Under the pieces are notes generated by a model, which was not told the DNA's origin, ran no database searches, and was given only the letters and a program-made list of their open reading frames with translations. A program made the position numbers and the translations under genes. DNA of 64,000 nt from Candidatus Uhrbacteria bacterium (GTDB lineage Bacteria; Patescibacteriota; Patescibacteriia; UBA9934), in the NCBI GenBank assembly GCA_018673485.1, contig JABHCP010000007.1, positions 9,890 to 73,889 of the forward strand, given 5' to 3'. How positions within the stretch are numbered: the first letter of the stretch is position 1; each line of letters opens with the position of its first letter. This document shows, piece by piece, positions 5,635-62,775 of this stretch.

Positions 5635-5679
5635 CAAGCAACTGAGAAATGACAGAATCAGCTCTCAGTTAACTGCAAT
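5635..5679 (+). repeat. 45-nt direct repeat copy 1 with internal hairpin AACTGAGA-N15-TCTCAGTT
   Basis: 40/45 identity with 6067..6111. Confidence 0.7.
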
Positions 5680-6066: not shown

Positions 6067-6111
6067 CAAGCAACTGAGAAGTGACAGTATCAACTCTCAG
6101 TTGCCTGCAAT
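6067..6111 (+). repeat. 45-nt direct repeat copy 2
   Basis: 40/45 identity with 5635..5679; the same hairpin is retained. Confidence 0.7.
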
Positions 6112-7262
6112 CTTAAACTCCGATTGCTAGCAACGCGCCTATAACAAGCGAGTAACTAATATAAATAATTGTTTCCATATATACACCTCCTAGATTATCA
6201 ATTTCTTAATCTCCTAGCAGGGGTCCCAGGGTTCGACAGATGTCTATTACCTGGGAGTGATGTTGATGCGGCGGACACTTCCGTCCTTGCACCTAGTCAC
6301 TACGACCTTCGGCTTTGCGGCATGATCCGACGCCCTCGCCTGCTGCCGAAGCTTGGCAGGGGAGGTCGTGAACCACACACGCTGGCCCCGAAGAGGCCCG
6401 CACTGACTGGTATCCATAGTATCTCCATGTCAGGGTTGAACAGATTGTATTTCAGGGAACTGGGTCTCTCCTTTCCCAGTTCCCTGGAATAAATCCAGGG
6501 ATCTCTCAGTCTTTTCACAGACAGGTTGATGATTATATTCATAACCCTCCAGATGAACCGTCTCTGTCTCTATATAGCTGCCGAGGCAGCGGTGGTTATC
6601 AGCCGTTCACAACAGGGGTCGAGGTTTTGACGAATCCTCCAGACTCTCATCTGAACGCGCATGGGGGAATACGTCCAGGTGAGAATCAAGTGGATATTGA
6701 AATTGGATCGGGAGAGGAGCTACTGAGAGTGGCTCCTCCCCCGAAACACGATCGTACCTTGGTGAACCTCCGTTTGGACTATGGGGCTCACCAATGACCT
6801 ATCATACCCTCACCAGTACCTATCGCATGCGTTAGCACGCGATACCTAAATGGCTGGCGACAGGTGATATCGGTCTAATGACACTTCAAACTCGATACGT
6901 TAGGACGCAACCGCTGTGTCCAGCAGCAATCTGAATCGAGCTCAAATGGGACATGTCACCTTCCGCAAAACTGCGGTTCCCAGGAATATGGTGTGGTAAA
7001 TCACCTCTCCCTTGTCATCCCTCTGACAAGCTAAAGGAATGGCAAGGATGGTGATTTTTGTTGTTAAGTGCTCACTTGAGGAATCTGCCTCATCAGCGAA
7101 CAAGGAAATCTATCATATCTATCAGAATCTGTCAAGCCCTTGATGTACAAAAAAGGTCATATTTGGGCATAATTGGCTAAAATTAAACAAAAAAAGAACC
7201 AATTTTCATCGGTTCTCCCTGTATAGTTTCAGCTTTATACTTTCAACTTTCTATCCTCCCCC

Positions 7263-7291
7263 TTGACAACCAACCACTTTTCATGTATAGT
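7263..7291 (+). promoter_or_regulatory. sigma70-type promoter (TTGACA-17-TATAGT)
   Basis: perfect -35 hexamer, 17-nt spacer, TATAGT -10; points into 7298..7576. Confidence 0.5.
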
Positions 7292-7535
7292 ACTGGGTCG
7301 TGCTGCAGATCTGCGGCGCGCTACACTAGCGGCCCTGAGCCGCTACATCTCGGAGTCATCATGAACGCGTAACCCCGTTGCGCTGTGAGGACCCAACCCC
7401 ATCCAGCCTGGAAGGTTCACAAGTCAACTGGCCCAACGGCCAGATATCATCGCGAACGCACGCCCCGTGCGTCGTGAATAGGAAGACTTCTGCAACCAAT
7501 CAGGAGGTGTGATGTGGGAGGAGTTTAACCACAGC

Positions 7536-9853: not shown

Positions 9854-9982
9854 TGTCACCCCTGGCTCCGACCAGGGGCCCATCAATTATCGATTCATTG
9901 AGCTTGATGTAACGATGGATCCCCCGCCTACCGGCAGGCAGGCTGCTTTCGACCCGTCTGACGGGTTTCGCAGGAATGACAA
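9854..9982 (+). repeat. about 130-nt structured intergenic repeat (copy 1) carrying a nested CCGG-centred palindromic module
   Basis: near-identical to 62653..62775 apart from a 24-nt insert CCCCCGCCTACCGGCAGGCAGG; compensatory hairpins CCCCTGG/CAGGGG versus CCCGGC/GCCGGG. Confidence 0.6.
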
Positions 9983-11345: not shown

Positions 11346-12146
11346 ATGCGTCCACTCTTGGGCCCCAACAACGGAGAGCACATGACAATTCGCCCCCTCC
11401 CCTGCGCTGATGACAACGTGAAAGCATTGGTATCACCCTTCAAACTGAGTGAGGTGGTAGTCACCTCGCCTGATGATCGCCGGCGAGCCGTTGAGTACAT
11501 GGCCTTCTGGTTTGGCCAGGACGAGCACATGAACCAGTTCTTTGGAGCCCTATGCAAACATGGAACTCCGGAACAGCAAGCGTCTGCACGTCGCGCCATC
11601 TTTGACATCTTCCTCGACGACGCACTCAAGTGCGCCTACCTGCGTAGCTTGGACGGTGAACGCACCGCATGCGAAAGCTGGTGGACGTACATGTACCCAA
11701 AAACGATCCGCGAAGACCTTGAAGAAACTGCTCAGCAAGTAGCTCGTGGATTCGAAGCTATCGGCTGGGCCAAACTCTTCTACGGTTTCCAGGTACTGAT
11801 GGCTGTCAAAAACCACGCTGTACCCAAAATTGATGGAGCGATGATCCCGCACCTTCAACTCAGCAATATCGCAACCGTTGAGGACCTCCGTGGAAGAAAG
11901 CACGCGACAGCTCACATCGTAGCGGTCTGCCGCGTCGCTGATGACCTCAACCTGCCAATTGCGCTGTGCTATGCGCGCCCCGACAATGCCACGTTTTACG
12001 CGAAGTTTGGATTCGAGGACAAGGAACGCATTCCAAAGCTGCCTGACAAATGCCCGTTCTACAACTGGATGTTGCGCATACCAGAGTCGGGACCAGGTGG
12101 TCACACAATGCACATCTGGCGAGCACGCAGACTCCTGCAAGCCTAG
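11346..12146 (+). CDS. hypothetical protein, possibly GNAT-fold, in a high-GC cassette
   Basis: 266 aa; C-terminal NATFYAKFGFED resembles the GNAT motif; about 57% GC; flanked by a promoter-hairpin and a terminator repeat. Confidence 0.45.
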   Translation: MRPLLGPNNGEHMTIRPLPCADDNVKALVSPFKLSEVVVTSPDDRRRAVEYMAFWFGQDEHMNQFFGALCKHGTPEQQASARRAIFDIFLDDALKCAYLRSLDGERTACESWWTYMYPKTIREDLEETAQQVARGFEAIGWAKLFYGFQVLMAVKNHAVPKIDGAMIPHLQLSNIATVEDLRGRKHATAHIVAVCRVADDLNLPIALCYARPDNATFYAKFGFEDKERIPKLPDKCPFYNWMLRIPESGPGGHTMHIWRARRLLQA

Positions 12147-12336: not shown

Positions 12337-12738
12337 ATGAGTCGCAGCTTCGCAGAAGTCCGCCAAGCGGCACCACCGATCCACGCCTTTGTGCCGGCGC
12401 ACAAAACCTTAGTGGATAAAATGATGGGCACCGTGACTGGCGACAAAGTCACGATCCTCGAGCCCAACACCATCGACGAACAGTATAGCGACACGCCTTT
12501 CGGTAGTGATGCTGCTACGAGCTATGTCGCGGGTGACGGCAATCGCAAAACCCCATACACCCTCAAAAGTGCGGCGCCAATGTCTGCACACTACGGTATG
12601 GTTGGCCTATGGTGGCTCTTCCAACTCAGCCTGCGCTCATGCAAGCGTCCGGTGTACATCAAGGTCAACGATTGGATCTTCGAGATCACTCCCGAAGGCG
12701 TCATCGCCCTCGACGGTACACTCACGAAGCTCATCTGA
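12337..12738 (+). CDS. hypothetical protein in a high-GC cassette
   Basis: 133 aa; preceded by the same AGCCTTGACAAAAGGCTGTTTT element and followed by the same GCGGGTTTCAC-CTTGCAA-ATTAGTTA terminator repeat as the previous ORF. Confidence 0.45.
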   Translation: MSRSFAEVRQAAPPIHAFVPAHKTLVDKMMGTVTGDKVTILEPNTIDEQYSDTPFGSDAATSYVAGDGNRKTPYTLKSAAPMSAHYGMVGLWWLFQLSLRSCKRPVYIKVNDWIFEITPEGVIALDGTLTKLI

Positions 12739-16949: not shown

Positions 16950-17618
16950 CTATTCTTCCCCGAAGTCACGACTCCAGTGCCAGTCGAGATATTTGTCACC
17001 TGTCCGGAACTGGATCCACTTGTTGGAAATCGAGAACATCACCTTGTGCTCTGTGGTATGTATACGACCTGGAACACCAAGCGCTGCGTAACGCCCATTG
17101 GCATTCGTAGGCTTGAGCTGCTCGGCAGTGTAGTGCCACTCGGCGTGTCCACGAGCATCGACTCGTGTATCTGGGAACACGAGGTGACAGCGCTCACCAG
17201 GGTTGAGCACATAACTCTCCTGACCGCTATCCATGACAACACGGTCAGTACCCTGGTGCGCCACGACTGTAGTCTGGCCATCAGGCATCTGCGCGAGCAT
17301 CGGCATGGCTTTCCACACACTGACCGGGAAACCATCGATACTGAAGCGGATCGGCGCAGGGGTGTCGTTCGTGAACGTCGCCTCGAACCATCCTTGGGCT
17401 GCGTTGGGTGGCAATCCACCGATGTAACACTTGCCTGGGACGACCTCACGAGCATCGATCATAGGCGAATACGGACTCGAATGGGTTTGCGTTGCAACGG
17501 TCTGCCGTTGTACGTCCTGTCGTTGCGTCTGCTGCTGCACCGGGGGTGGAGCATGGCGAGAGTGAGGACCCGCAAAGGTAGTAGCGGCCAACAAGACAAT
17601 GCACGTGAGATGACTCAT
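16950..17618 (-). CDS. secreted hypothetical protein in a high-GC island
   Basis: signal peptide MSHLTCIVLLAATTFAGP; about 60% GC; opposite-strand ORFs are Arg-rich antisense artefacts. Confidence 0.5.
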   Translation of the reverse strand: MSHLTCIVLLAATTFAGPHSRHAPPPVQQQTQRQDVQRQTVATQTHSSPYSPMIDAREVVPGKCYIGGLPPNAAQGWFEATFTNDTPAPIRFSIDGFPVSVWKAMPMLAQMPDGQTTVVAHQGTDRVVMDSGQESYVLNPGERCHLVFPDTRVDARGHAEWHYTAEQLKPTNANGRYAALGVPGRIHTTEHKVMFSISNKWIQFRTGDKYLDWHWSRDFGEE

Positions 17619-17621
17619 GAT

Positions 17622-18272
17622 CTACTCCCCCTCGAGGATGTCTGTGAGGACTTCCTCGGCTGAGTCAGCACGCGCCTGCTGGGCGTCGGCCTCCTTTTGG
17701 GCCTTCTCGCGTTGCAGCTTCAGTGCCTCGATTTGGCTTGCTTGCCGTTGCGTCGTCGCTTCGAGCTCTGCGGCCTCAGCCTCGGCTGCGGCCTGGAGTT
17801 GTTGCGCACCCTGGACCTCAGTACTACGACCATCGGCCCACATCTGAGTAGAGATAATCGACGCTTCGCTGTCGATGATCTGCAAATCGCGTGTGAGCAT
17901 CGGCGGAAGATAGGCACCATACGGATCGTGATACTGATCGTACAGACTGTAGTACTGATCGTACGGATCGCTATACATGTCAGGAGGCGGCGGCACATAG
18001 GTCGGGCCAACCTGAAGGTGGAGACCTCCGCGCACGCGCGGGGTGGAACCACGGTTGTACGCTCGGCGGCGGCTCGGCTCGATCTGCACGTGCAACTGAG
18101 CGGACTGTCCGCTGCACTGGTACCAGCCGTCGCTGTTGCGATAGTCAGGCACCTGGATGGTGCGCATGTCCACGCAATTGCCGTTGCGGTAATCGTAGCA
18201 GACCTGCTTGCAGGAATCTGCGTAGGCGGGGTTCAGGCTCATGGTGAGAACGAGGGCGATCAGGAAGTTCAT
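17622..18272 (-). CDS. secreted hypothetical protein with C-terminal coiled coil in a high-GC island
   Basis: start taken at MNFLIALVLTMSLNPAYA (signal peptide); Cys-rich N-terminal part; Q/A/E-rich coiled coil. Confidence 0.5.
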   Translation of the reverse strand: MNFLIALVLTMSLNPAYADSCKQVCYDYRNGNCVDMRTIQVPDYRNSDGWYQCSGQSAQLHVQIEPSRRRAYNRGSTPRVRGGLHLQVGPTYVPPPPDMYSDPYDQYYSLYDQYHDPYGAYLPPMLTRDLQIIDSEASIISTQMWADGRSTEVQGAQQLQAAAEAEAAELEATTQRQASQIEALKLQREKAQKEADAQQARADSAEEVLTDILEGE

Positions 18273-18542
18273 GACTTCTCCGGGGGTGATAGGACGGGAA
18301 AATTCACTACAAAAGCGCTTATGCTGGCGCTCTGCAGACATGTTAAATTATCATGAAAAACTCATTCGGTCAATACAAAGCCATGCCTCATTGAACTAAT
18401 CAGTCACGACTACCCCAAACCTAGCCTAGTATTCCTGATTGACAATTATGCGAACTTTTGCTAAATTAAACCGTCTTGATCTACTCGTCTTTGGGACGAA
18501 TCAAGTATCCGTCCCCTCAAAAACCACACACAGGAGTGACCC

Positions 18543-20165
18543 ATGTCACCACCGATCACAAAAGCAGAAGTTCTAGCAACGTTTGGCGATGTTGGCTTTG
18601 CCACGATCCGTGAGCAACTGCAAAGCGCAATCGGCAACAGCGATGTCTCCCTCCTCTTGAACCAAACCGGCCTTCGCGCAAAGCTAGCCAAAGCGGCCAT
18701 GGAGCATCCGCAAGGTGCTGCTGTTGGCATTGATGTTTTGACAACTCTTGTTGGCAGAATGGCCAGCCACTACAACCCCTTGCTTGGAAAGACAGTTGAT
18801 GAGCTGGGTGAAGGTGTAGCCTACGGGCTCCGTGATCTAGCTCAAGAAGCTCGAAATGGCACAGCTATCACCGCTGGCAACGTCGAAACTGCCCTGCAAC
18901 AGGCTGACAAAACCATGGCGGTCATCAAAGAACAGCGCAGCGCAAAACTCGCTGAACTCCATGTTGGGCAGCGTCGCGCATTCTTTGCCCTTCTGCTCGC
19001 CAGCCGAGAAGAAGAGCACTTTGACAATACGCCCGCTTGGGCGCTTGACCCGCTTGCAGCACGCCGAAGGCGCCATGGCCAACGTGGATTCCGCGGACTC
19101 GAAGGTCGCGCGTTTCAGACTGAGGCTGGACTGCTCTGGTTGCTCGAAACCGACATCGAAATGCTCAAGCAAGTCCTGCCAAGCGACAAGAGCTTTGACC
19201 AGGTGTACTACTACCCTTCGCGCTGCTGCCAAGAGGCAATCACCGCGGCTACGACCTGCAAGTCTATGCCAATGCAAAAGGCGCTTGACGTCATCGACCT
19301 GATGGTCGACAAAGAAGACCTCAAGCAAAGAGCTGGCAGAACTGCTGGTTGGATCCTAGACACTGCGCGCAGTGCGGCAACCACTGCTCTGATCGCTTAT
19401 CCAGTGTTCATGATCGTCATGTTCGCGCTCTTCTTTACCGCAGCAATCATCTTCTTGGTATGCCACGCAACGCTCCTATTTGCCCCCACTGCGCCGACCT
19501 GGGCTGTTGTAACGATAATCCTGGCCTACCTTGCCTTGCTGCTCTTCCGCTACACATTTACGTTGGTGGACACATTCCATGCCTTTGTTGGCTGGCTTGT
19601 GCAACGGCTTGATGTGACGCGTGAAGATGCGCTCGTAGGCACGATCGCACGTGGCCTCTTGGGCATCTTTGGTAAAGAAGACTTGCTCAAACAGACTCCG
19701 CGTGGAGAAAAGAGGGAATACTCATGGGCAGTCCACTTTGCTGGAACGGCGTTCATCGCCGCAACAGCACTTGCCGCCCTGACCGTACTCCACTACTTTA
19801 TGGGACGAGGTATTGGCCCAGCGTTCATCATCATCCTCACAGAGCTCCTCATCCTCCTAGCAGTTGAGCTCCCACGACGAATGTCAGCCCTGATCCCGCA
19901 TAGCGACAAGATCCAGGACGCCCGTTGGATGCGGAAATGGGTGACGCGTGGTGCTGTAACACTCATCGTTCTGACGGCCATCATCTCGATTGTGGGCTGG
20001 AACACTACCAGCTGGCTCGTGAGCCAAGTTCGCTCAGAACAGGTCACGAATCCAGCCGAAGCTGGTGCTCCAGAGCACAGCTCACCTAAGCTCGAGCGCG
20101 CCTGCGCGCACTGTCGCGAACACGATGGTTGCAGCGACGTGCTCAAGGCCAAGTGTGGTCTCTAG
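18543..20165 (+). CDS. hypothetical membrane protein (soluble N-terminal domain plus about 6 TM) in a high-GC island
   Basis: 540 aa; promoter-like TTGACA-17-TAAATT upstream at about 18435. Confidence 0.55.
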   Translation: MSPPITKAEVLATFGDVGFATIREQLQSAIGNSDVSLLLNQTGLRAKLAKAAMEHPQGAAVGIDVLTTLVGRMASHYNPLLGKTVDELGEGVAYGLRDLAQEARNGTAITAGNVETALQQADKTMAVIKEQRSAKLAELHVGQRRAFFALLLASREEEHFDNTPAWALDPLAARRRRHGQRGFRGLEGRAFQTEAGLLWLLETDIEMLKQVLPSDKSFDQVYYYPSRCCQEAITAATTCKSMPMQKALDVIDLMVDKEDLKQRAGRTAGWILDTARSAATTALIAYPVFMIVMFALFFTAAIIFLVCHATLLFAPTAPTWAVVTIILAYLALLLFRYTFTLVDTFHAFVGWLVQRLDVTREDALVGTIARGLLGIFGKEDLLKQTPRGEKREYSWAVHFAGTAFIAATALAALTVLHYFMGRGIGPAFIIILTELLILLAVELPRRMSALIPHSDKIQDARWMRKWVTRGAVTLIVLTAIISIVGWNTTSWLVSQVRSEQVTNPAEAGAPEHSSPKLERACAHCREHDGCSDVLKAKCGL

Positions 20166-20393: not shown

Positions 20394-20774
20394 CTAACCA
20401 GCGAGGCCTGCAGTGGTCAGTGACGTAATCACGAAGTTTGAAATCGCGTACGCTGCCAAAAGGATAATTAATCCGATTACAGCATTGATCATGATGTCCT
20501 TTGCCTTTTGAGTCTTGTCTGACTCACCACCGGCTGTCATCCACAAGAATCCTGCGTAGATAACAAGAACTAGCAAGATGATTCCCAATAGAGTAAGGAA
20601 AACTTTGATCAGGTCTCCGATCGTCGCGGCAAGTGGCTCGTCTGAGAACTCTGCAGCTAAAGCTGCACTATCAAGCTCAGTACTAATGTCCTGTGCGTGA
20701 ACTGGTGCTGCAAGCATTGGAACTGACAACAGTCCGATTGCGAGCAATGCGCCTAGTTTTTTGAGATATCCCAT
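20394..20774 (-). CDS. TrbC/VirB2-family pilin-like protein (paralog 1)
   Basis: Sec signal ending AHAQ; two C-terminal TM helices with the loop IYAGFLWMTAGGESDKTQKAKD. Confidence 0.7.
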   Translation of the reverse strand: MGYLKKLGALLAIGLLSVPMLAAPVHAQDISTELDSAALAAEFSDEPLAATIGDLIKVFLTLLGIILLVLVIYAGFLWMTAGGESDKTQKAKDIMINAVIGLIILLAAYAISNFVITSLTTAGLAG

Positions 20775-20836
20775 AGTAATAAATTAATAACTCTTTTAAT
20801 TAGTAATCTTATTTTAACATTTTTTGTAATCCTACG

Positions 20837-21190
20837 CTATATAGCCAACTGTATAGAATCGATAACGAAATTCGAAATTGCATACGCTGCCAATAGGATA
20901 ATTAGTCCAATCACGGCATTGATCATGAAATCTTTTGCCTTCTTAGTCTTATCCGTCTCACCACCAGCTGTCATCCACAGGAATCCTGCGTAGATCATTA
21001 TCAACAATAATATTATACCGAGTATCGAAAGCGCAACACCGATTATACCACCAATCATTACTGGCAAAGTAGCCTCTGAGAACCCGACTTGACCCTGCGC
21101 ATCGTCAACTTGGCTAGTGAAATCAAGCGCCCAAACAGTCACGGGGCTCGCCAGCACCAAACAAACAATTGAAAAAACTAACTTCTTCAT
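20837..21190 (-). CDS. TrbC/VirB2-family pilin-like protein (paralog 2)
   Basis: start taken at MKKLVFS; IYAGFLWMTAGGETDKTKKAKD loop. Confidence 0.7.
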   Translation of the reverse strand: MKKLVFSIVCLVLASPVTVWALDFTSQVDDAQGQVGFSEATLPVMIGGIIGVALSILGIILLLIMIYAGFLWMTAGGETDKTKKAKDFMINAVIGLIILLAAYAISNFVIDSIQLAI

Positions 21191-21555
21191 AATGATGGGG
21201 CGTTGAGCGCTGTAAAGATGTATGTCGTAATGGCGTATGCTGCTGTGATAATTATTACACCGATCACAGCACGAATCATTAAGTCTTTTGCTTTTTGAAC
21301 TTGATCGGAGGCTCCACCGGCTGTCATCCATAGGAATCCCGCGTATACCATCAGTACCAAAAAGATCAGACCAACGAGCGCTAATGCTGGGGTAATAATC
21401 TTAGTTCCAACCCATTGACCAAGAGTTTGATCAAGAGTTCCATAAACCTCGGCACCTGTAGCATCCAAGCCAGTTTCGGATGGATCTAGCTGCGCAAAGA
21501 CAAGTGTGGGGCCAAGAAGCAGCGCAACGGCTGCAAGGGCGATGTATTTTCGCAT
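21187..21555 (-). CDS. TrbC/VirB2-family pilin-like protein (paralog 3)
   Basis: start taken at MRKYIAL; VYAGFLWMTAGGASDQVQKAKD loop. Confidence 0.7.
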   Translation of the reverse strand: MRKYIALAAVALLLGPTLVFAQLDPSETGLDATGAEVYGTLDQTLGQWVGTKIITPALALVGLIFLVLMVYAGFLWMTAGGASDQVQKAKDLMIRAVIGVIIITAAYAITTYIFTALNAPSL

Positions 21556-21601
21556 AGCCAAGTGCCAGCACGTATGTGCTGGCAAAAGGTCATAAGAAAA
21601 T

Positions 21602-22006
21602 TTAACCAGCTGAGGCGGTAATCACGGAATCGATCACAAAACTTGTAATCGCAAACGCTGACAAGATAATCGCCAGTCCGATAACACCAGCAATTAAGAG
21701 TCGTTTCGCTTCCGAGACTTTGTCTTCGTTTCCACTTGCTGTCATCCACTTAAATCCACCCAAGAGAACCATTACTACTGCAATAATTCCAAGGAATCCA
21801 AGGAAAACGCGAATAAGATTCCCAATAGTCTCTTTTAGGTTGGCTTGTCCGAGCCCTGAACTATCTGAAAAATCGTCATCAAAGAAATCTGAAGTATCAA
21901 GTTGCTGTGCGTGAGCAACAGGAACGTTTGTAGCGAAAGTCATTGTTCCCAACAGAGGGATCGCTACTAAGAAACTAAGTGCGAATAGTGATAGCGCTTT
22001 TGTCAT
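21602..22006 (-). CDS. TrbC/VirB2-family pilin-like protein (paralog 4)
   Basis: signal peptide; LLGGFKWMTASGNEDKVSEAKR loop. Confidence 0.65.
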   Translation of the reverse strand: MTKALSLFALSFLVAIPLLGTMTFATNVPVAHAQQLDTSDFFDDDFSDSSGLGQANLKETIGNLIRVFLGFLGIIAVVMVLLGGFKWMTASGNEDKVSEAKRLLIAGVIGLAIILSAFAITSFVIDSVITASAG

Positions 22007-22058
22007 AGTGTTTTATGATTAATAATATTAAATAGTTGAATCGCTCGATTATATCTCG

Positions 22059-22126
22059 CTTGTTGAAGATGTTTAAGTTGTTTATTTCAGAGTAAACACT
22101 TTAAACACCTTCAACAATTTAAACAT
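22059..22126. promoter_or_regulatory. conserved upstream element, copy 2
   Basis: shares the GTTTAYTTCRGARTAAACACTTTAAACA core with 16841..16889. Confidence 0.5.
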
Positions 22127-22132
22127 CAGCTC

Positions 22133-22468
22133 TTAGACGCTTCCAGTCAGAACTGCGCTGAAGATTGCGTCTGTTAAAACATACGCTCCAGCAATCAGGA
22201 TGATCCCCAGAGTCGCCCAAACCAAAATGTCCTTTCCCTTTTTCACCTGATCTCCTTTTCCCATGTCTGTAAGCCACAGGATGCCACCATATACAAACAT
22301 CAGAAGCGCCAATGTTCCGGCAACGGACAATGCGCCGCTAATAACTGTTCCGATGATCACTCGTACATCGTTCTCACCCAAAGGATTAGTAAGAGTGACC
22401 TGAGCTTGTGCTATATATGGCATAGCCAGCGCTCCTACACTCACGATAATAGCCTTAATCTTTTTCAT
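22133..22468 (-). CDS. TrbC/VirB2-family pilin-like protein (paralog 5)
   Basis: signal peptide AQAQ; VYGGILWLTDMGKGDQVKKGKD loop. Confidence 0.65.
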   Translation of the reverse strand: MKKIKAIIVSVGALAMPYIAQAQVTLTNPLGENDVRVIIGTVISGALSVAGTLALLMFVYGGILWLTDMGKGDQVKKGKDILVWATLGIILIAGAYVLTDAIFSAVLTGSV

Positions 22469-22491
22469 AGAAATATTATATCAAGATTTTT

Positions 22492-22992
22492 CTATTGCGT
22501 CTGAATGATATCCGCAGCCCCGGCGCCATCTACTGCATTATCGATTGTATCTTCAATATCCGTCGTTGGAATCTCTCCAGTTGTAATAACAGAAACGACA
22601 ACGTTAATAACGGCATATGCACCCATAATAATCGCCAATCCCACCAAGGCTCCGATAATCGCCTTCTTTCCTTCGTCCACCATTCCAGCTTCACCATGGG
22701 CTAGAATCCACTTCATACCTCCATAAACTAAAATGAACATCATCACAGAACCAGTGATTCCAAAGATGAAAACGCTCAAATTAACTAAAAGCTGCATCAT
22801 GTCCTCGAGCGTACACTTACCATGGTCTCTGCATTCGCACGCTGCACTCGCGCTTGAACAAATACCGGCAAAGATAAGTCCCTGATCTTGAATCTCGGCA
22901 TACCTACCTGCGATTGATTGAGCCTGAACACTAGGCACAAAAACACCCAGCATCGCAAAGGACAATAAAAATGTTAATGCATACTTTTTCAT
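22492..22992 (-). CDS. TrbC/VirB2-family pilin-like protein with Cys-rich insert (paralog 6)
   Basis: signal peptide VQAQ; CSSASAACECRDHGKC insert; VYGGMKWILAHGEAGMVDEGKK loop. Confidence 0.6.
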   Translation of the reverse strand: MKKYALTFLLSFAMLGVFVPSVQAQSIAGRYAEIQDQGLIFAGICSSASAACECRDHGKCTLEDMMQLLVNLSVFIFGITGSVMMFILVYGGMKWILAHGEAGMVDEGKKAIIGALVGLAIIMGAYAVINVVVSVITTGEIPTTDIEDTIDNAVDGAGAADIIQTQ

Positions 22993-27285: not shown

Positions 27286-28491
27286 TTAATTCGTATACTC
27301 GATTGATGTTTTCACTGGACTCATCTTGCGCAAGCGCTCGACGATCTCTGGAAGAACTTCAAGTACGCGTTTCAGATCTTTCTTTGTTGTTGACCGGCCT
27401 AGGCTGAAGCGTAAACTTCCGTGTGCTACTGCGAAGGGAACTCCAAGGGCTAAAATCACATGGCTTGGATCCAACTTTTCGCTTGTGCACGCTGACCCTG
27501 AAGATGCGTAAATACCTCGCGCATCAAGATAGAGCAAAAGCGCCTCGCCCTCTACATCTAAAAATGAAATGTTGATGTTGTTAGGAAGTCTGTCTATTGC
27601 GTGACCGTTAAGTCGAACTTTTGGAACTCGCTCCTTAACCTCATCAATAAAATAATCTCGAAGTTTTGTGAGACGCTTAACTTCTCGCTCTCGATCACTG
27701 CGAGCCAGCTCAACCGCCTTTGCAAATCCAACTATCCCTGCAACATTCTCGGTTCCTGGTCGAAGCCTACGCTCCTGAGAACCACCAAACATAATTGGCT
27801 CTATCTTGACTCCACGTTTGATGAACAATGCACCCGCACCCTTCGGTCCGTAAATCTTTGAGGAGTTGACTGTCATCAAATCAACGTGCAGAGCCTCAAC
27901 TCGCATGTCCAAATACCCAAATGCCTGACAGGCGTCGGTGTGGAAAAGCGGATATGATGTTTTATTTTGTTTTTTGTATTTATTTATTGCTCGTCCAATA
28001 TCTGCCAGCGGATGAATCGTACCGATCTCATTATTCGCATACATGATTGAAACTAAAATCGTATCATCACGTAATGCTTTTTCAACGTCGCTAATCGAAA
28101 CACGTCCGTACTCATCGACATTCAACAATGTCACCTCAAACCCCTCCTTCTCCTCCAAATGTCGAAGCGCCTCAAGAACGGCTGGGTGCTCAGTCACGCA
28201 CGAGACGATGTGCCTACCGCTATCCTTATGAGCTCGAGCAGCTCCTAAAATTGCCATGTTGTCAGACTCAGTTCCACTGCCTGTAAAAATAATCTCGTCA
28301 GCTCGTGCGTCCATCGCGTCAGCCACCATCTTTCGAGCGCTCTCGATTAAATCTCGAGCCTCCTTACCCTTCATGTGCATGCTCGACGGATTGCCTAGCC
28401 CTAGATTCTCTATCTTACGCATCAAATCAACCACCTCTTTGCGAGTTGGCGTTACAGCAGCGTGATCAAGATAAATTTGTGACTTTTTCAT
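27286..28491 (-). CDS. iscS: cysteine desulfurase
   Basis: class V aminotransferase; PLP-lysine region SSKIYGPKG; active-site SGSACTS. Confidence 0.9.
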   Translation of the reverse strand: MKKSQIYLDHAAVTPTRKEVVDLMRKIENLGLGNPSSMHMKGKEARDLIESARKMVADAMDARADEIIFTGSGTESDNMAILGAARAHKDSGRHIVSCVTEHPAVLEALRHLEEKEGFEVTLLNVDEYGRVSISDVEKALRDDTILVSIMYANNEIGTIHPLADIGRAINKYKKQNKTSYPLFHTDACQAFGYLDMRVEALHVDLMTVNSSKIYGPKGAGALFIKRGVKIEPIMFGGSQERRLRPGTENVAGIVGFAKAVELARSDREREVKRLTKLRDYFIDEVKERVPKVRLNGHAIDRLPNNINISFLDVEGEALLLYLDARGIYASSGSACTSEKLDPSHVILALGVPFAVAHGSLRFSLGRSTTKKDLKRVLEVLPEIVERLRKMSPVKTSIEYTN

Positions 28492-28498: not shown

Positions 28499-28538
28499 AT
28501 GTTTCACATATTGGACGATCGTCAACATTGTGAAACAT
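28499..28538. repeat. 40-bp near-palindrome centred on CGATCG (GTTTCAC arms)
   Basis: ATGTTTCACATATTGGACGATCGTCAACATTGTGAAACAT immediately 5' of iscS; shares GTTTCAC...GTGAAAC arms with 27228..27267. Confidence 0.7.
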
Positions 28539-28718
28539 TTCAAATAAGCTAACTGTCTTCTTTAATGGCCTAGGATATGTGTTTTTATGCCTTCTGTCAA
28601 CAATTCTACCACGGAGCGTGTTGGTTGACAGTTTGTCACTTTTTAGCTAATCTAATCAGCCGTTCCTACGTATTTCGCCCCATTAACCACCGCTGCGCTA
28701 TATGCGCTGAGGATACCC

Positions 28719-29417
28719 ATGTCCGAACCCGCCACCACACGTCAAGAACTTATAATCAAGATCCTGCGACTCGAAGCTGACAATGCTCGCCTGCAGGCTG
28801 AACTCGAGACTGCTAAGATCCGCATCCAGGAGCTCGAAGCTGAGCATGCACCGGAGATGTGCGCCGAGTACGACATCTGTACCCTCTCCAAGCCCATCGA
28901 GGAGTTAGTGCTTTCGAAACGCGTGAAAAAACTTCTCCGGTTTGGCTTCTATGACATGCCTGATGGTTCCATGGTATACATCTGGCAACTCATTGAAAAA
29001 ACTGAGGCCGAGGTACTCCATATCCGCGGCTTGGGGCGCAAGAGCTTTGGTCAAATCAAAGTGGAGCTAGCCGAACTCGGACTCAGCCTTGGCATGGGAT
29101 GCCCGGACGAGATCAAGGCCCAGCTCCCCCACCCCGACTTCAGTGCAAAAATGATCGAAAATCTCTCCCGTACGTGGGATGATATCGAGCTCTCGATTCG
29201 CGCAGCGAACTGCTTCAATCTCCACAGCATCTGGTACGTCTGGGAGTTCGTCGAGTACACCGACAAGAGGGCGCTTGCAGAGATCAAGAACTTCGGACGC
29301 GGGACGCTCAACGAGCTCAAGGAAATCCTCGAAGAGCTCGGGCTAGAGCTCAACACGAAAATACCACTCGAGGTCAGAACCCGGCTACCACAGGACAATC
29401 CGTACCTCAGGCACTAG
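28719..29417 (+). CDS. stand-alone protein with N-terminal coiled coil and two RNA polymerase alpha-CTD-like domains
   Basis: IELSIRAANCF and ELGLSLGMG blocks match the rpoA C-terminal domain (LELTVRSANCL...SRGLSLGM) twice; about 58% GC. Confidence 0.6.
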   Translation: MSEPATTRQELIIKILRLEADNARLQAELETAKIRIQELEAEHAPEMCAEYDICTLSKPIEELVLSKRVKKLLRFGFYDMPDGSMVYIWQLIEKTEAEVLHIRGLGRKSFGQIKVELAELGLSLGMGCPDEIKAQLPHPDFSAKMIENLSRTWDDIELSIRAANCFNLHSIWYVWEFVEYTDKRALAEIKNFGRGTLNELKEILEELGLELNTKIPLEVRTRLPQDNPYLRH

Positions 29418-29481
29418 GCCCCCGCGGCCAACACGCACGTCAAAACCCCACCGCCAACTGGCGCGTGGGGTTCTCAGCTTT

Positions 29482-29536
29482 TAGTAGATCTCTCGTCGCT
29501 CCGACCCGTCAGACGGGTCTTCGCTCCTCGAGATGG
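29482..29536 (+). repeat. modular GC-rich repeat (TAGTAGATCTCTC...hairpin...CTCGAGATGG)
   Basis: termini as at 63653..63681; inner hairpin CGACCCGTCAGACGGGTC as in 9854..9982. Confidence 0.5.
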
Positions 29537-29624
29537 AAAAGGGGGGTAAAGGCTGGGGGGACCTTAAATACAAAACCAGCTTTCGCTGGTTATCTTAAAC
29601 TGCGTACTGAGTACTGCGCACTAA

Positions 29625-30623
29625 TTACTGCCCCTTACATCCACCAAAAGTGAATGCGTAAAAGCTAACATGATCTGAGGATGTTTTTAGTTTCAATGTT
29701 CCTTTGTGATAAACATCTGAATCAACCAAGTTGTACATTCTTGATGCTGTCATTTTTACAATTGCTTTGCCGTTTTTCATCTCAACGTCGGTGCCCAACA
29801 TGTCCTCTGGCAATGGGTGACCGTCAAGCTCAATTTCAACCTCGGCTGCTCGAGTCTTCTTTAGTGACCCTGCCACTAAGTTCACAGAAAACCCGCTGTA
29901 CTTGAGTGCTAAGTATTCGTTCGCACTTGCTAACGCTCTCGTGTGACTTAATTGCTCCTTATCCACCGTCCAGTGTCCGTGCAGATATACTAAATCGTCT
30001 TGGTGTTCGCCCTTGTCATTGAAATCAACTTCACTACCTGGAATAACGCCGTGTGCGTTGCCAAAACGACCACGTAAAAATCCCAAATAAGTTTCTGGTG
30101 TTGTTCTGTAGCAAATCCCCCCGCCAACTGATACGTCGGGTGCGATCTCGGGAAGATCCTCTACACCAATATCACGCAAAGCTTTTTGAATCTCGGCTTC
30201 AGTCTCTGCGTATCCTCCTTCACCGATGTGATCATAAACAATCTCACCATCTTTGTTTAAAAGAAGCTTACGAGGCCACCAACGGTTAGTGTATGCTGTC
30301 CAAACTTTATAATCTGAATCAAGAATTACTGGATACTTAATCTTAAATCTTTTAATCGCACTTTCAACATTCGCTTTCTCTTTTTCAAAATCAAACTCCG
30401 GAGTGTGCACGCCGATTATCACCAAACCCTTGTCTGCGTATCGCTTATGCCAGTCGCGCAAATGATCGAATGTTCTAATACAATTAATACATGAGTAGGT
30501 CCAAAAATCTAAAAGCACCACTTTTCCTTTGAGTGATTTGAGTGTGTGCGAATCTCCATTGAGCCACTCAAGGCCTTTAGGAAATTCCGTCGCATGAATT
30601 TTTTGAAGTCGATGCAAGAACAT
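29625..30623 (-). CDS. thioredoxin-fold thiol-disulfide oxidoreductase (TlpA/redoxin-like) with extra C-terminal domain
   Basis: WTYSCINC CxxC motif in redoxin context; 332 aa. Confidence 0.7.
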   Translation of the reverse strand: MFLHRLQKIHATEFPKGLEWLNGDSHTLKSLKGKVVLLDFWTYSCINCIRTFDHLRDWHKRYADKGLVIIGVHTPEFDFEKEKANVESAIKRFKIKYPVILDSDYKVWTAYTNRWWPRKLLLNKDGEIVYDHIGEGGYAETEAEIQKALRDIGVEDLPEIAPDVSVGGGICYRTTPETYLGFLRGRFGNAHGVIPGSEVDFNDKGEHQDDLVYLHGHWTVDKEQLSHTRALASANEYLALKYSGFSVNLVAGSLKKTRAAEVEIELDGHPLPEDMLGTDVEMKNGKAIVKMTASRMYNLVDSDVYHKGTLKLKTSSDHVSFYAFTFGGCKGQ

Positions 30624-45119: not shown

Positions 45120-45148
45120 TTGACAAGAGCGTGTTTTTGTGTTATATT
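45120..45148 (+). promoter_or_regulatory. sigma70-type promoter (TTGACA-17-TATATT)
   Basis: directed at the 45282 ORF, which has a GGAGG RBS. Confidence 0.45.
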
Positions 45149-45281
45149 TTGCAGTCCTGCTGAGTCTACGGACCAGCTGACAACCTTCCTTGGGCCTACC
45201 ACACAATTCGTGAGGGGGCAGCAAAGAAGGATCCTTTTTCAGGACCTACTTCGTGAAAGCGGAGGGGTTGCTGGAGAAATC

Positions 45282-45656
45282 ATGAACGATAAAGCAGACG
45301 TGATCATGTGCGCCCACCAAGGCACCTTCATGGTGTACCCTCACCCCGAAGGGCGCCTGGCACACCTCTACGAGGAAGTCACGGTCAATATCAGAGGGAA
45401 CGACTTTGTGAAGCCAAAGGTCTGGATCCTTGGTGCGTCCTGGGCCGACACGATTCTCGGAACGCACGGGACTCGTCAGGAGGTGGATACCCTCAAGCGC
45501 TTGATGCGTAGTGAGGGCATCGTATACCAGGTCACGCAAGACGAGATGGTCCCATGCTGCCAGCCTGCCCGTAAGAACAACGAGTGGGTCTGGTACGACT
45601 CTGACCGTGCCCAGCTGCGAACTGACTCGCCTTTGGCGATCTTCTTTAGCGGCTAG
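45282..45656 (+). CDS. hypothetical protein (124 aa) in a high-GC islet
   Basis: RBS GGAGG 9 nt upstream of the ATG; long GC hairpin and T-run downstream. Confidence 0.45.
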   Translation: MNDKADVIMCAHQGTFMVYPHPEGRLAHLYEEVTVNIRGNDFVKPKVWILGASWADTILGTHGTRQEVDTLKRLMRSEGIVYQVTQDEMVPCCQPARKNNEWVWYDSDRAQLRTDSPLAIFFSG

Positions 45657-45982: not shown

Positions 45983-46666
45983 CTAGCGGGATCCTCGAGC
46001 TGATCCCCACGTTCCTTCTTTGCGTGAACTGCCGAAGATGTATTCGGGTTGGGTCTCTTCGGATATGTCTTGGATGACGACTTGGTGCCCGTCGCCTTGA
46101 AGGACCGAGCTCGCTCCAACTGGCATGATGAACTGTTGGTCGACGTCGCGGGTGATGATCATGCCCTGCGGTTCGAGCAGCGGGCTGTTCTGGTGGTTGT
46201 CCCAGATCAGCATGTCGTTGATCGTGTAGGTCTGGTCAGGTTCGAACCGACCAGAAACCTCCTCGATGATCAGCGTGCCGCCGTCGCGTTCGAAGACGCC
46301 AGTCGTGAAGCCCGTGAATGGGTGGTCGTTGTTCGCATCCTTGAAGATCGAGTTGACCCCAAAGAGCTTGGGCTGGGTCATGCCACGAAGGTGAGCACTT
46401 GAGTCACCGACATAGACTACCACCTTGTGGGCCTGTGGTGTCACAAAGAGCATGAAGTTCGGATCCTCGCAATCGGCTGAGGTGCTGGAGAGCTCTTGCT
46501 CCAGACAGGTCTCGATCGTGGCGAGAAGTTCTGCCTTTCCTGTGTCACGACCACCGTACAATGTAGCCAGGTTGACGCCGCACATGAGAAGAGCTGCGAT
46601 AACGAGTAACACCGTTAGATCAGAGACCTTCAAGGTGATTTCTTTGGAGAAGAATTTGTTTGCCAT
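45983..46666 (-). CDS. hypothetical membrane-anchored protein in a high-GC islet
   Basis: N-terminal TM anchor; 227 aa. Confidence 0.5.
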   Translation of the reverse strand: MANKFFSKEITLKVSDLTVLLVIAALLMCGVNLATLYGGRDTGKAELLATIETCLEQELSSTSADCEDPNFMLFVTPQAHKVVVYVGDSSAHLRGMTQPKLFGVNSIFKDANNDHPFTGFTTGVFERDGGTLIIEEVSGRFEPDQTYTINDMLIWDNHQNSPLLEPQGMIITRDVDQQFIMPVGASSVLQGDGHQVVIQDISEETQPEYIFGSSRKEGTWGSARGSR

Positions 46667-62652: not shown

Positions 62653-62775
62653 CTGTCATCCCGGCCGTAGAGCCGGGATCCATCGAGATGCAGAATTCGA
62701 TCGAACTGAATCGAGCTTGATGTAACGATGGGTTCCTGCTTTCGACCCGTCTGACGGGTTTCGCAGGAATGACAA
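62653..62775 (+). repeat. about 125-nt structured intergenic repeat (copy 2, without the nested module)
   Basis: see 9854..9982. Confidence 0.6.

What the first reader, a model, noticed from the sequence alone, without database searches (positions are those of the whole stretch)
28719..29417. Stand-alone protein with coiled coil plus two RNA polymerase alpha-CTD-like domains
Residues about 60-125 and about 150-215 each match the rpoA C-terminal domain (IELSIRAANCF versus LELTVRSANCL; ELGLSLGMG versus SRGLSLGM). They are preceded by a leucine-zipper-like coiled coil. An alpha-CTD decoy or adaptor could compete for UP elements or for activator contacts. The gene sits in a high-GC islet with its own repeat at 29482, again suggesting acquisition.
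Basis: partly seen in the sequence, partly recalled or inferred. Interest (0 to 1): 0.6.

Follow-up and report, generated by a model that had tools for sequence, protein, structure and literature searches.

The report
Stand-alone zipper protein with two alpha-CTD domains
A small gene in an uncultivated Candidatus Uhrbacteria genome encodes a likely dimeric protein made of a leucine zipper plus two copies of the DNA/activator-contacting tail domain of RNA polymerase subunit alpha, without the part that joins the polymerase; it belongs to a widespread but unstudied class of such orphan tail-domain proteins and probably acts on promoter DNA in trans.

Summary
ORF 28719-29417 (+, 232 aa) encodes a leucine-zipper-like helix (res 8-42) followed by two genuine RNA polymerase alpha-CTD domains (Pfam PF03118, E=2.5e-20, two stretches). 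AlphaFold models have pLDDT about 87, and their best structural matches are all alpha-CTDs (target TM 0.8-0.9, rmsd 1-2 A). No alpha N-terminal domain exists in the protein or anywhere in the window, so it is not RpoA. The gene is a compositional outlier (GC3 0.69 versus 0.46). It lies in a variable islet between iscS and a thioredoxin-like gene. A syntenic relative carries a larger islet at the same site: a sigma-region-4 + coiled-coil + alpha-CTD protein, a small HTH protein, and a one-domain ortholog (153 aa). The second domain is a clean in-frame indel. An exhaustive search shows NTD-less alpha-CTD proteins are common in metagenomes, with 1-12 copies and fusions to sigma region 4, TPR and other domains, and they also occur on phage contigs. 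This zipper subtype has only one relative cluster. I found no paper on such proteins. The most likely function is a dimeric, trans-acting binder of A/T-rich promoter-upstream DNA. That is inferred, not shown. It is a new variant of a known domain kind, of moderate interest.

The parts
28655..29600 (.). High-GC islet (about 0.95 kb) between iscS (27286-28491, -) and a thioredoxin-like gene (29625-30623, -)
   Evidence: The GC profile is 0.50-0.59 inside the islet and 0.37-0.47 outside. Homology to the L001 islet starts near 28655. L001 carries a 2.7-kb islet at the same site.
28709..28713 (+). Shine-Dalgarno-like GAGGA, 5 nt upstream of the ATG
   Evidence: Read directly from the sequence.
28719..29417 (+). 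CDS of 232 aa: leucine-zipper helix plus two alpha-CTD domains. It is identical to NCBI 'hypothetical protein HN358_02940 [Candidatus Uhrbacteria bacterium]'.
28740..28844 (+). Residues 8-42: a long amphipathic helix with about 4.5 heptads. Asn22 sits at an 'a' position and is conserved as Asn33 in P0002.
   Evidence: AF2 helix with pLDDT 92-97; heptad register; weak coiled-coil Pfam hits to DivIC and DUF4164.
28875..29093 (+). Alpha-CTD domain 1 (res 53-125). R68, G106, K108 and S109 correspond to E. coli R265, G296, K298 and S299. N268 is replaced by K71 and C269 by L72.
   Evidence: Domain 1 modelled alone has pLDDT 87 and hits only alpha-CTDs at TMt 0.83-0.89, rmsd 1.5-2.0 A.
28941..28961 (+). 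Seven-residue insertion (F75-P81, FGFYDMP) in the loop after helix 1 of domain 1, at the E. coli 271-273 region. It is shared only with P0002.
   Evidence: Alignment to E. coli and other alpha-CTDs.
29103..29132 (+). Tail motif after domain 1 (P129-H138, PDEIKAQLPH). It recurs after domain 2 and in the L001 425-aa protein.
29139..29408 (+). Domain-2 module (res 141-230), an in-frame block of about 90 codons that is absent from the ortholog P0002
   Evidence: blastn and alignment of the window against L001; the stop-codon context and the 3' UTR are orthologous.
29145..29354 (+). Alpha-CTD domain 2 (res 143-212). R161, N164, C165, N191, G193 and E199 correspond to E. coli R265, N268, C269, N294, G296 and E302. 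K298 is replaced by G195 and S299 by T196. D154, D155 and E157 keep the E. coli 261 determinant.
29444..29483 (+). Intrinsic-terminator-like hairpin (12 bp with one bulge, dG -22 kcal/mol, z = -4.4) followed by a U-rich run. It is conserved directly after the stop codon in L001.
29493..29527 (.). Insertion relative to L001, about 26 nt by the alignment gap: the palindrome GACCCGTCAGACGGGTC flanked by the 10-nt direct repeat TCGTCGCTCC / TCTTCGCTCC. The same hairpin core occurs in two MITE-like repeats elsewhere in the window.

Best explanation
The gene encodes a lineage-specific alpha-CTD protein that lacks the alpha N-terminal domain. Shown here: it has a long N-terminal amphipathic helix with a leucine-zipper heptad pattern, then two genuine alpha-CTD folds joined by short, lower-confidence linkers. 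It has no alpha N-terminal domain, so it cannot be built into the RNA polymerase core. The shared part of the gene is under purifying selection. The gene lies in a compositionally foreign, variable islet. In a sister genome that islet also encodes a sigma-region-4 + coiled-coil + alpha-CTD protein and a small HTH protein. Inferred: the zipper makes a parallel homodimer, because Asn at an 'a' position favours this in GCN4. The dimer would display four alpha-CTD modules on flexible tethers, much as the alpha-NTD dimer displays two. These modules would bind the minor groove of A/T-rich, UP-element-like DNA through the conserved Arg (R68, R161) and the Gly-containing hairpins (G106, G193). Acting in trans at promoter-upstream DNA, the protein would modulate transcription. 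The simplest mechanism is occupying sites otherwise used by the polymerase's own alpha-CTDs or by activators. The alternative is acting as an architectural factor.
For: Domain identity: Pfam PF03118 E=2.5e-20 with 2 stretches. The PDB sequence hits are alpha-CTDs, apart from one insignificant last hit at E=0.97. The AF2 model has pLDDT 87.8. Foldseek top hits are all alpha-CTD, at TMt 0.8-0.9 and rmsd 1-2 A, for the whole protein and for domain 1 alone.

No NTD.

Zipper: the heptad register with conserved Asn at 'a', and the coiled-coil + alpha-CTD module shared with the L001 425-aa protein (31.7% identity over 142 aa).

DNA-contact residues: R265 and G296 equivalents are kept in both domains. 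Domain 1 keeps K298 and S299. Domain 2 keeps N268, C269, N294 and E302.

Conservation across 351 NTD-less alpha-CTD domains: R265 83%, G296 89% and E302 83% are among the most conserved non-core positions, whereas the sigma-contact residue E261 is only 38% conserved.

Recurrent fusion of alpha-CTD to the DNA-binding sigma70 region 4 (P0124, P0213, P0237, L001 425-aa protein) argues that the module is used as a promoter-DNA reader.

Selection: dN/dS is 0.28 in domain 1 against P0002.

Islet.

Solved complexes show alpha-CTD bound to AT-rich or UP DNA (9zum, 3n97, 1lb2).
Against: There is no experimental or binding data for this or any NTD-less alpha-CTD protein. Six searches of the held paper library found nothing. 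Each domain has lost part of the E. coli '265 determinant': domain 1 has N268K, C269L, N294G and E302Q, and domain 2 has K298G and S299T. Domain 1 also carries a 7-residue loop insertion, so DNA affinity or specificity may differ or be lost. Both domains are net acidic by my own residue count, as is E. coli alpha-CTD. Dimerisation was not modelled. There is no conserved operon partner or target site to anchor a function: contexts of relatives vary. The conservation analysis is biased towards proteins similar to the query.
Confidence: 0.45

Rival explanations
1. Protein-binding decoy or adaptor. The alpha-CTD domains do not bind DNA. Instead they present alpha-CTD surfaces that capture factors that normally dock on RNA polymerase alpha-CTD, such as class I activators, Spx-like regulators or sigma region 4. 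The protein would titrate these factors or bridge them.
For: Domain 2 keeps the complete E. coli 261 determinant (D154, D155, E157), which contacts sigma70 region 4. Both domains have partly degraded DNA-contact sets. In the sister islet the partner gene encodes a sigma-region-4 domain, which could be a binding partner. Solved structures show alpha-CTD as a protein-docking platform (1z3e Spx, 3n4m CAP).
Against: Across NTD-less alpha-CTD domains the sigma- and Fis-contact positions are poorly conserved (information 1.37 and 0.98 bits, against 2.46 bits for DNA-contact positions), while R265 and G296 are highly conserved. The 287 determinant is largely lost in domain 2. No candidate partner gene is encoded in the window's islet.
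Confidence: 0.2
2. Cargo of a mobile element or phage. The protein serves the element rather than the cell, for example by redirecting or shutting down transcription during an element's life cycle. It now sits as a remnant cassette in the chromosome.
For: The gene has foreign composition, and its codon usage is shared with other ORFan islets. Islet content varies at one site. Synonymous divergence of domain 1 (pS 0.26) is far below the flanks (0.69, Fisher p=7e-11), which is consistent with recent exchange. NTD-less alpha-CTD ORFs sit in replication modules of IMG/VR phage contigs. They are also auto-annotated in uncultured Caudovirales and in Rhodococcus phage Finch. P0121 lies next to a phage integrase. 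The alpha-CTD genes in all the Uhrbacteria or Uhrbacteria-like loci examined are GC-rich relative to their surroundings; P0121, of unknown taxon, is not.
Against: The window's islet and the L001 islet contain no integrase, transposase, att-like repeat or phage structural or replication gene. P0001 has no PHROG or PADLOC match and no tblastn hit in 50,697 GenBank phage records. The gene is retained at the same site in two genomes that differ by about 25% in nucleotide sequence.
Confidence: 0.2
3. Split alpha subunit. The organism's rpoA lacks a CTD, and this protein supplies alpha-CTD function in trans to RNA polymerase.
For: None directly. The same-genome rpoA could not be inspected.
Against: An essential polymerase part would be conserved across the lineage. 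Instead only one other cluster (P0002) resembles this protein among 1.84 billion representatives. Domain number differs between the two orthologs (1 versus 2). The gene is compositionally foreign. There is no recognisable polymerase-docking element. From general knowledge, CPR genomes carry ordinary rpoA genes in the ribosomal-protein cluster.
Confidence: 0.03
4. Decaying or functionless gene fragment derived from duplicated rpoA 3' ends.
For: The family is very narrow. Substitutions occur at several canonical functional positions.
Against: The ORF is intact, with an SD-like sequence and a conserved terminator. dN/dS is 0.28 in domain 1. Both domains give confident, well-packed models. The hydrophobic core positions are intact. 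Neither domain is a recent copy of any rpoA, with best identities about 50%.
Confidence: 0.05

Closest known systems
C-terminal domain of bacterial RNA polymerase alpha subunit (E. coli RpoA 249-329; Pfam PF03118)
   Same: The fold is the same: two helix-hairpin-helix motifs, rmsd 1-2 A. Key residues R265 and G296 are kept in both domains, and the hydrophobic core is kept. Like RpoA, the domains hang on flexible linkers from a (probable) dimerisation module.
   Different: There is no alpha-NTD, so the protein cannot assemble with beta and beta'. The dimeriser is a leucine zipper rather than the NTD. There are two CTDs per chain. Each domain has lost part of the 265 determinant, and domain 1 has a 7-residue loop insertion. 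The gene lies outside the ribosomal-protein operon.
Sigma70-region-4 + coiled-coil + alpha-CTD proteins of Uhrbacteria and relatives (L001/L003 425-aa protein, P0124, P0213, P0237); uncharacterised
   Same: They share the coiled-coil + alpha-CTD module (31.7% identity over 142 aa) and the tail motif PxE[IVM][KR][AT][QR]LP. They have the same high-GC composition, and the 425-aa protein sits in the same islet in the sister genome.
   Different: The window protein has no HTH or sigma-4 domain and carries two alpha-CTDs instead of one.
Auto-annotated phage 'RNA polymerase alpha subunit C-terminal domain-containing proteins' (uncultured Caudovirales; Rhodococcus phage Finch) and alpha-CTD ORFs on IMG/VR contigs
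   Same: They are small, NTD-less proteins built around alpha-CTD folds.
   Different: They are only distantly related (16-29% identity among the named phage alpha-CTD entries; Foldseek E 9e-4 for the best, up to about 1 for the weakest). Most have one CTD, and they lie in phage replication or early modules. The window gene has no phage neighbours and no hit in GenBank phages.
Francisella alpha1/alpha2 (two full-length rpoA paralogs; PMC3294249) and the RpoA-like proteins with NTD plus two tandem CTDs found here (P0004-P0006)
   Same: Both are examples of duplication or diversification of alpha-subunit parts. P0004 and P0006 also carry tandem CTDs, and their second copy has the same K298G change.
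   Different: Those proteins keep the alpha-NTD and can in principle enter the polymerase. The window protein cannot.
bZIP / GCN4-type leucine zippers
   Same: Heptad repeat with Leu at 'd' positions and a single buried Asn at an 'a' position.
   Different: There is no basic region. The DNA-reading parts would be the C-terminal alpha-CTD domains, not the helix itself. The oligomeric state is untested.

Membership tests
RNA polymerase alpha subunit (RpoA; TIGR02027 and PRK05182 models) | Alpha N-terminal dimerisation and assembly domain (PF01000 / PF01193) | tested here: not met
   Pfam finds no such domain. NCBIfam rpoA equivalogs score 38-107 bits against cut-offs of 228-523, and match only their C-terminal positions. 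tblastn with full rpoAs and my own NTD HMM find no NTD in the protein or the window.
RNA polymerase alpha subunit (RpoA; TIGR02027 and PRK05182 models) | Location in the ribosomal-protein / rpsD-rpoA-rplQ cluster | tested here: not met
   The neighbours are iscS, nifU, a thioredoxin-like gene and VIT1.
RNA polymerase alpha subunit (RpoA; TIGR02027 and PRK05182 models) | Single C-terminal alpha-CTD after a flexible linker | tested here: not met
   There are two alpha-CTDs preceded by a coiled coil.
Alpha-CTD domain family (Pfam PF03118, RNA_pol_A_CTD) | Sequence score above the Pfam gathering threshold | tested here: met
   72.4 bits against 23.8, E=2.5e-20, two stretches.
Alpha-CTD domain family (Pfam PF03118, RNA_pol_A_CTD) | Alpha-CTD fold rather than another HhH fold | tested here: met
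   All top Foldseek PDB hits are alpha-CTD, at TMt 0.8-0.9 and rmsd 1-2 A, for the whole model and for domain 1 alone.
Alpha-CTD domain family (Pfam PF03118, RNA_pol_A_CTD) | DNA-binding '265 determinant' (R265, N268, C269, G296, K298, S299) | tested here: inconclusive
   Domain 1 keeps R, G, K and S but has N268K and C269L. Domain 2 keeps R, N, C and G but has K298G and S299T. Actual DNA binding is not testable here.
Alpha-CTD domain family (Pfam PF03118, RNA_pol_A_CTD) | Activator and sigma contact determinants (261, 287) | tested here: inconclusive
   The 261 determinant is intact only in domain 2. The 287 determinant is partly kept in domain 1 and mostly lost in domain 2.
Parallel dimeric leucine zipper | At least 4 heptads with hydrophobic a/d positions and a buried polar Asn at 'a' | tested here: met
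   a = I15, N22, L29, I36 and d = L11, L18, L25, A32, L39. The Asn is conserved in P0002. The helix has pLDDT above 90.
Parallel dimeric leucine zipper | Actual homodimer formation | not testable with these tools
   Only monomer prediction was available, and concatenated or dimer inputs are not accepted.
Phage-encoded alpha-CTD proteins | Encoded within a phage or prophage gene neighbourhood | tested here: not met
   There are no phage genes around the ORF. There is no PHROG hit and no tblastn hit in GenBank phages. However, the composition is foreign.
Anti-phage defence system components (PADLOC) | Match to a defence-system protein model | tested here: not met
   There is no PADLOC hit for P0001.
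Other HhH families (RuvA, ComEA, Pol beta, HHH_5 and similar) | Better match to those families than to alpha-CTD | tested here: not met
   No HHH-family Pfam hit for P0001 appears even at E up to 10. All structural hits listed in the top 50 are alpha-CTD.

The most novel reading that the evidence does not exclude
NTD-less alpha-CTD proteins may be an unrecognised class of trans-acting promoter-upstream factors. In Uhrbacteria they would travel on high-GC mobile cassettes together with sigma-region-4 + alpha-CTD fusions. Together these would form a polymerase-free mimic of the polymerase's upstream promoter-reading parts (UP element plus -35). Such a mimic could occlude or re-programme promoters. 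The targets might be the cell's own promoters, or those of a competing element or of the bacterial host of this presumably episymbiotic CPR organism.
Probability: 0.15. Interest if true: 0.8.

Novelty: new variant of a known kind. Interest (0 to 1): 0.5.

Why it matters
Alpha-CTD is one of the best-studied regulatory modules of bacterial transcription, yet it is treated almost entirely as part of RpoA. This locus, and the roughly 140 relatives recovered with it, show that the module circulates widely on its own. It occurs dimerised by a zipper, repeated up to 12 times, fused to sigma region 4, and on phage contigs, and the searched literature contains no functional study. If these proteins bind UP-like DNA or alpha-CTD partners in trans, they would be a new layer of promoter control or of host take-over. 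The window protein is small (232 aa) and predicted with confidence, which makes it a convenient test case. The finding also warns that PF03118, used as a single-copy phylogenetic marker (for example in PMC3663571), is not single-copy in such genomes. Proteins like P0003 are already mis-annotated as RpoA.

Tried and rejected
1. Looked for the genome's true rpoA. It is not in the window. The source genome is not among the GTDB representatives: the genome scan returned five full-length rpoAs of other taxa and one NTD-less alpha-CTD frame on a Saccharibacteria contig. The metagenome scan returned only hits at rpoA-like identity, which I did not inspect individually. Cluster look-ups gave no taxon names for rpoA-like fragments. 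The question stays unresolved.

2. The viral scan with the broad alignment A1 failed because no conserved stretch was available. Repeating it with a tight alpha-CTD alignment worked.

3. The afdb50 fold library was unavailable.

4. Tested whether domain 2 was copied from the sister islet's 425-aa protein or from a known rpoA. Identity is 46% to the 425-aa protein and 48-53% to many unrelated alpha-CTDs, so no recent donor can be named.

5. Tested whether high GC3 reflects high expression. I rejected this because rplL in a related Uhrbacteria locus has GC3 of 0.43.

6. Tested for repeats linking the window's high-GC islets to one another. No shared flanking repeats were found. The only link is a 16-nt palindrome shared with two MITE-like elements.

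7. PHROG and PADLOC scans of the protein found nothing. The GenBank phage search found nothing, and the plasmid search found only true rpoA genes.

8. Six literature searches for NTD-less alpha-CTD proteins found nothing relevant.

9. The JGI gene calls of 130 and 170 aa on the minus strand of the L001 islet were rejected as spurious. A 425-aa plus-strand ORF with real domains covers that region.
Full report
**The observation**

- Pfam reports RNA_pol_A_CTD (PF03118) at E=2.5e-20, 72.4 bits against a cut-off of 23.8, in two separate stretches.
- NCBIfam rpoA equivalog models match only with their last 70 or so positions and stay far below their cut-offs.
- A sequence search of the PDB returns alpha-CTD chains, apart from one insignificant last hit at E=0.97. 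E. coli residues 253-318 align to residues 149-215.
- The two domains are 29% identical to each other (blastp E=1e-6).

**Structure**

An AlphaFold2 model built on 25 relatives has mean pLDDT 87.8. It shows one long helix (res 8-42), a lower-confidence linker (res 43-52), and two compact helical bundles joined by a short linker.

Foldseek against the PDB gives only alpha-CTD structures at the top, with target-normalised TM 0.8-0.9 and rmsd 1-2 A. These include alpha-CTD bound to AT-rich DNA, to UP DNA with sigma region 4, to CAP and to Spx.

Domain 1 is the divergent one, so I modelled it alone. That model has pLDDT 87.2 and pTM 0.76. One caveat is that the models rest on alignments of alpha-CTD homologs.

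**The N-terminal helix**

The heptad register puts L11, L18, L25, A32 and L39 at 'd' positions and I15, N22, L29 and I36 at 'a' positions. The single Asn at 'a' is conserved in the only close relative. From established work on GCN4, a buried Asn at 'a' favours parallel dimers, so I infer a homodimer. This was not testable with these tools.

**It is not RpoA**

No alpha N-terminal domain is present in the protein or anywhere in the 64-kb window. tblastn with four queries, three of them full-length rpoAs, finds only the two CTD copies, and my own NTD HMM finds nothing. The neighbours are iscS, nifU, a thioredoxin-like gene and a VIT1 gene, not ribosomal-protein genes.

The protein is identical to NCBI 'hypothetical protein HN358_02940 [Candidatus Uhrbacteria bacterium]', so the window is from a CPR/Patescibacteria genome. 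I could not inspect that genome's real rpoA.

**Functional residues**

I aligned both domains to E. coli alpha-CTD. My typed E. coli sequence has the right length and places R265 correctly, and the alignment agrees.

| E. coli position | Domain 1 | Domain 2 |
|---|---|---|
| R265 | R68 (kept) | R161 (kept) |
| N268 | K71 (changed) | N164 (kept) |
| C269 | L72 (changed) | C165 (kept) |
| N294 | G104 (changed) | N191 (kept) |
| G296 | G106 (kept) | G193 (kept) |
| K298 | K108 (kept) | G195 (changed) |
| S299 | S109 (kept) | T196 (changed) |
| E302 | Q112 (changed) | E199 (kept) |

Domain 1 also has a 7-residue insertion (F75-P81) in the 271-273 loop. Domain 2 keeps the 261 determinant (D154, D155, E157). 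After each domain comes a family-specific tail, PxE[IVM][KR][AT][QR]LP. The same tail is present in P0002 and in the 425-aa protein described below.

**Relatives**

The word-indexed search found one close relative, P0002 (153 aa, 73% identity). Everything else was at or below E=1e-19.

The exhaustive HMMER search of 1.84 billion representatives gave 2244 hits at E<=1e-3, but only three at E<=1e-30. With my own HMMs, about 140 of the best 150 lack an alpha-NTD and carry 1-12 alpha-CTD copies, in proteins of 90-3676 aa.

Pfam shows fusion partners including sigma70 region 4, TPR repeats, T5orf172, FGE-sulfatase and GvpL/F domains. NTD-less alpha-CTD proteins are therefore a large, promiscuous and unstudied class. 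The zipper-plus-inserted-domain-1 subtype is extremely rare.

Six literature searches found no paper on such proteins. Only the Francisella full-length paralogs are documented (PMC3294249).

Across 351 NTD-less domains, conservation is as follows:

- R265 83%, G296 89%, E302 83% and S299 68%, which are DNA-contact positions.
- E261 38%, and the 271-273 positions 22-33%, which are sigma- and Fis-contact positions.

This pattern, together with the recurrent fusion to the -35-reading sigma region 4, is my main argument that the module is used as a DNA reader.

**Genomic context and evolution**

The gene has GC 0.54 and GC3 0.687, against window means of 0.458 and 0.455. About nine other ORFan genes in the window form similar islets, and none has a Pfam or PHROG family.

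The alpha-CTD gene's codon usage fits those islets better than it fits the bulk genes: -1.07 against -1.27 nats per codon. rplL of a related genome has an ordinary GC3, so the signal is not an expression bias.

Locus L001 is a 52.7-kb metagenome contig that is syntenic with window 20.4-38.5 kb at 70-78% nucleotide identity. Between the same iscS and thioredoxin-like genes it carries a larger 2.7-kb high-GC islet. That islet has three same-strand genes:

- a 425-aa protein with an N-terminal HTH, sigma70 region 4, a coiled coil and one alpha-CTD
- a 103-aa HTH protein
- P0002, which has the zipper plus domain 1 only

The database's minus-strand gene calls in that islet are spurious.

The stop-codon context and the 3' UTR are orthologous between the two loci. 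The UTR contains a 12-bp hairpin (dG -22 kcal/mol, z = -4.4) followed by a U-run. Domain 2 (about 29139-29408) is therefore a clean in-frame indel of about 90 codons.

Domain 2 is 46% identical to the 425-aa protein's CTD and 48-53% identical to many other alpha-CTDs, so no recent donor can be named.

Domain 1 is under purifying selection, with dN/dS 0.28. Its synonymous divergence (pS 0.26) is far below that of the flanking genes (0.60-0.75; Fisher p=7e-11) and below that of its own zipper segment (0.55). This points to recent recombination of that module or to a constraint on silent sites. I cannot tell which.

In the other Uhrbacteria or Uhrbacteria-like loci examined, the NTD-less alpha-CTD genes are also GC-rich relative to their surroundings, at unrelated genomic sites.

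**Phage or chromosome?**

Twelve IMG/VR contigs carry NTD-less alpha-CTD ORFs of 106-376 aa. The three I examined lie among primase, helicase, Erf and Cas4-exonuclease genes. BFVD lists auto-annotated phage proteins named 'RNA polymerase alpha subunit C-terminal domain-containing protein'. P0121 lies two genes from a phage-type integrase.

The window protein itself has no PHROG or PADLOC match and no hit in 50,697 GenBank phage records. Only true rpoA genes match in the plasmid collection. The islet contains no mobility gene. The gene is therefore chromosomal but compositionally foreign. A mobile origin is plausible and unproven.

**The 'repeat at 29482'**

Nothing substantial is there. The region holds the terminator-like hairpin at 29444-29472. 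It also holds, at 29493-29527, an insertion relative to L001 of about 26 nt by the alignment gap. That insertion consists of the palindrome GACCCGTCAGACGGGTC flanked by a 10-nt direct repeat. The palindrome core also occurs in two MITE-like elements, at about 9854-9982 and 62654-62775.

**Mechanism and verdict**

Shown: the architecture, the folds, the absence of an NTD, purifying selection, the foreign composition, and the variable cassette with sigma-4 and HTH partners in the sister genome.

Inferred: a zipper-mediated parallel dimer presenting four alpha-CTD modules that bind A/T-rich, UP-like DNA through R68 and R161 and the Gly hairpins. Such a dimer would act in trans on promoter-upstream DNA, either as a competitor of the polymerase's own alpha-CTDs or as an architectural factor. 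My confidence is about 0.45.

| Rival explanation | Confidence |
|---|---|
| Protein-binding decoy or adaptor | 0.2 |
| Cargo serving a mobile element | 0.2 |
| Decaying gene | 0.05 |
| Trans-supplied CTD for a split alpha subunit | 0.03 |

The protein is a member of the alpha-CTD domain family but not of the RpoA family. I rate it a new variant of a known kind, with moderate interest (0.5). The broader class it belongs to is the more interesting result.

Noticed in passing
window 5100-7500: About 2.4 kb with GC near 0.50 has no ORF longer than 107 aa. This is unusual for a compact CPR genome. There is no Rfam match even at E<=1, and the region contains an internal 55-nt direct repeat at 85% identity (about 5631-5685 and 6063-6117). 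It could be a large non-coding RNA or a degraded element.
   Followed up: partly
window 9854-9982 and 62654-62775: Two copies of a MITE-like element of about 125 nt. The ends look like terminal inverted repeats (TGTCAyCCC ... GGAATGACAA), and the shared core is GAGCTTGATGTAACGATGG...CTGCTTTCGACCCGTCTGACGGGTTTCGCAGGAATGACAA. The hairpin core also occurs in the 3' UTR of the alpha-CTD gene (29504-29519).
   Followed up: partly
window 11346-12146, 12337-12738, 16950-17618, 17622-18341, 18543-20165, 45120-45656, 45983-46666, 63065-63571: Eight further high-GC3 ORFan genes (GC3 0.59-0.70 against a mean of 0.455) form islets with a shared codon usage (CTC, CGC and ATC rich). None has a Pfam family, and the five that were scanned have no PHROG family. 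Several look secreted or membrane-bound. They are not similar to each other or to the alpha-CTD islet.
   Followed up: partly
window 28786-29135 versus L001 10101-10450: The domain-1 segment is 85% identical in nucleotides to its ortholog, and its synonymous divergence (pS 0.26) is far lower than the flanking housekeeping genes (0.60-0.75) and its own zipper segment (0.55). This indicates recent recombination of just this module, or selection on silent sites.
   Followed up: partly
window 28499-28538: A 40-nt near-perfect palindrome (ATGTTTCACATATTGGACGA / TCGTCAACATTGTGAAACAT) lies immediately upstream of the iscS start. It is a candidate operator for the iscS-nifU operon rather than for the alpha-CTD gene.
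   Followed up: no
L001 8082-9359 and L003 497-1774: A 425-aa protein combines an N-terminal HTH, sigma70 region 4, a coiled coil and one alpha-CTD. The same architecture recurs in P0124, P0213 and P0237. Joining a -35-reading domain and a UP-reading domain in one non-polymerase protein is striking and undescribed.
   Followed up: partly
L001 8583-8975 and 8982-9494 (database gene calls): The public gene calls on the minus strand of the high-GC islet (130 and 170 aa, with no domains) are artefacts. They overlap the real 425-aa plus-strand gene.
   Followed up: yes
P0004, P0005, P0006, P0287; L044 1216-2217: These are RpoA-like proteins with a recognisable alpha-NTD followed by two tandem alpha-CTDs. 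The one locus examined is not in a ribosomal-protein operon; its neighbours are TPR, transposase and HTH genes. This suggests RpoA paralogs with duplicated CTDs.
   Followed up: partly
P0122 (1031 aa), P0202 (806 aa), P0137, P0197, P0132: These proteins carry 7-12 tandem alpha-CTD repeats and no other recognisable domain. P0122 starts with a signal-peptide-like hydrophobic segment.
   Followed up: no
L014 5863-6198, L020 5815-6237, L019 5659-6201: Small NTD-less alpha-CTD ORFs (111-180 aa) sit inside the replication or recombination modules of IMG/VR phage contigs, next to primase, helicase, Erf and Cas4-exonuclease genes. None matches a PHROG family.
   Followed up: partly
window 20394-22992 (and L001 1-2699): A tandem array of small genes corresponds by synteny to six T4SS_pilin-like genes (Pfam PF18895) in L001.
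   Followed up: no
L005 8001-8984 (P0003): The Uhrbacteria GW2011_GWE2_45 protein is annotated in NCBI as 'DNA-directed RNA polymerase subunit alpha'. It has no alpha-NTD. It has an unknown N-terminal region plus two alpha-CTDs, and it lies next to metK in its own high-GC islet (GC3 0.77). This is an annotation error that could also distort marker-gene counts based on PF03118.
   Followed up: partly
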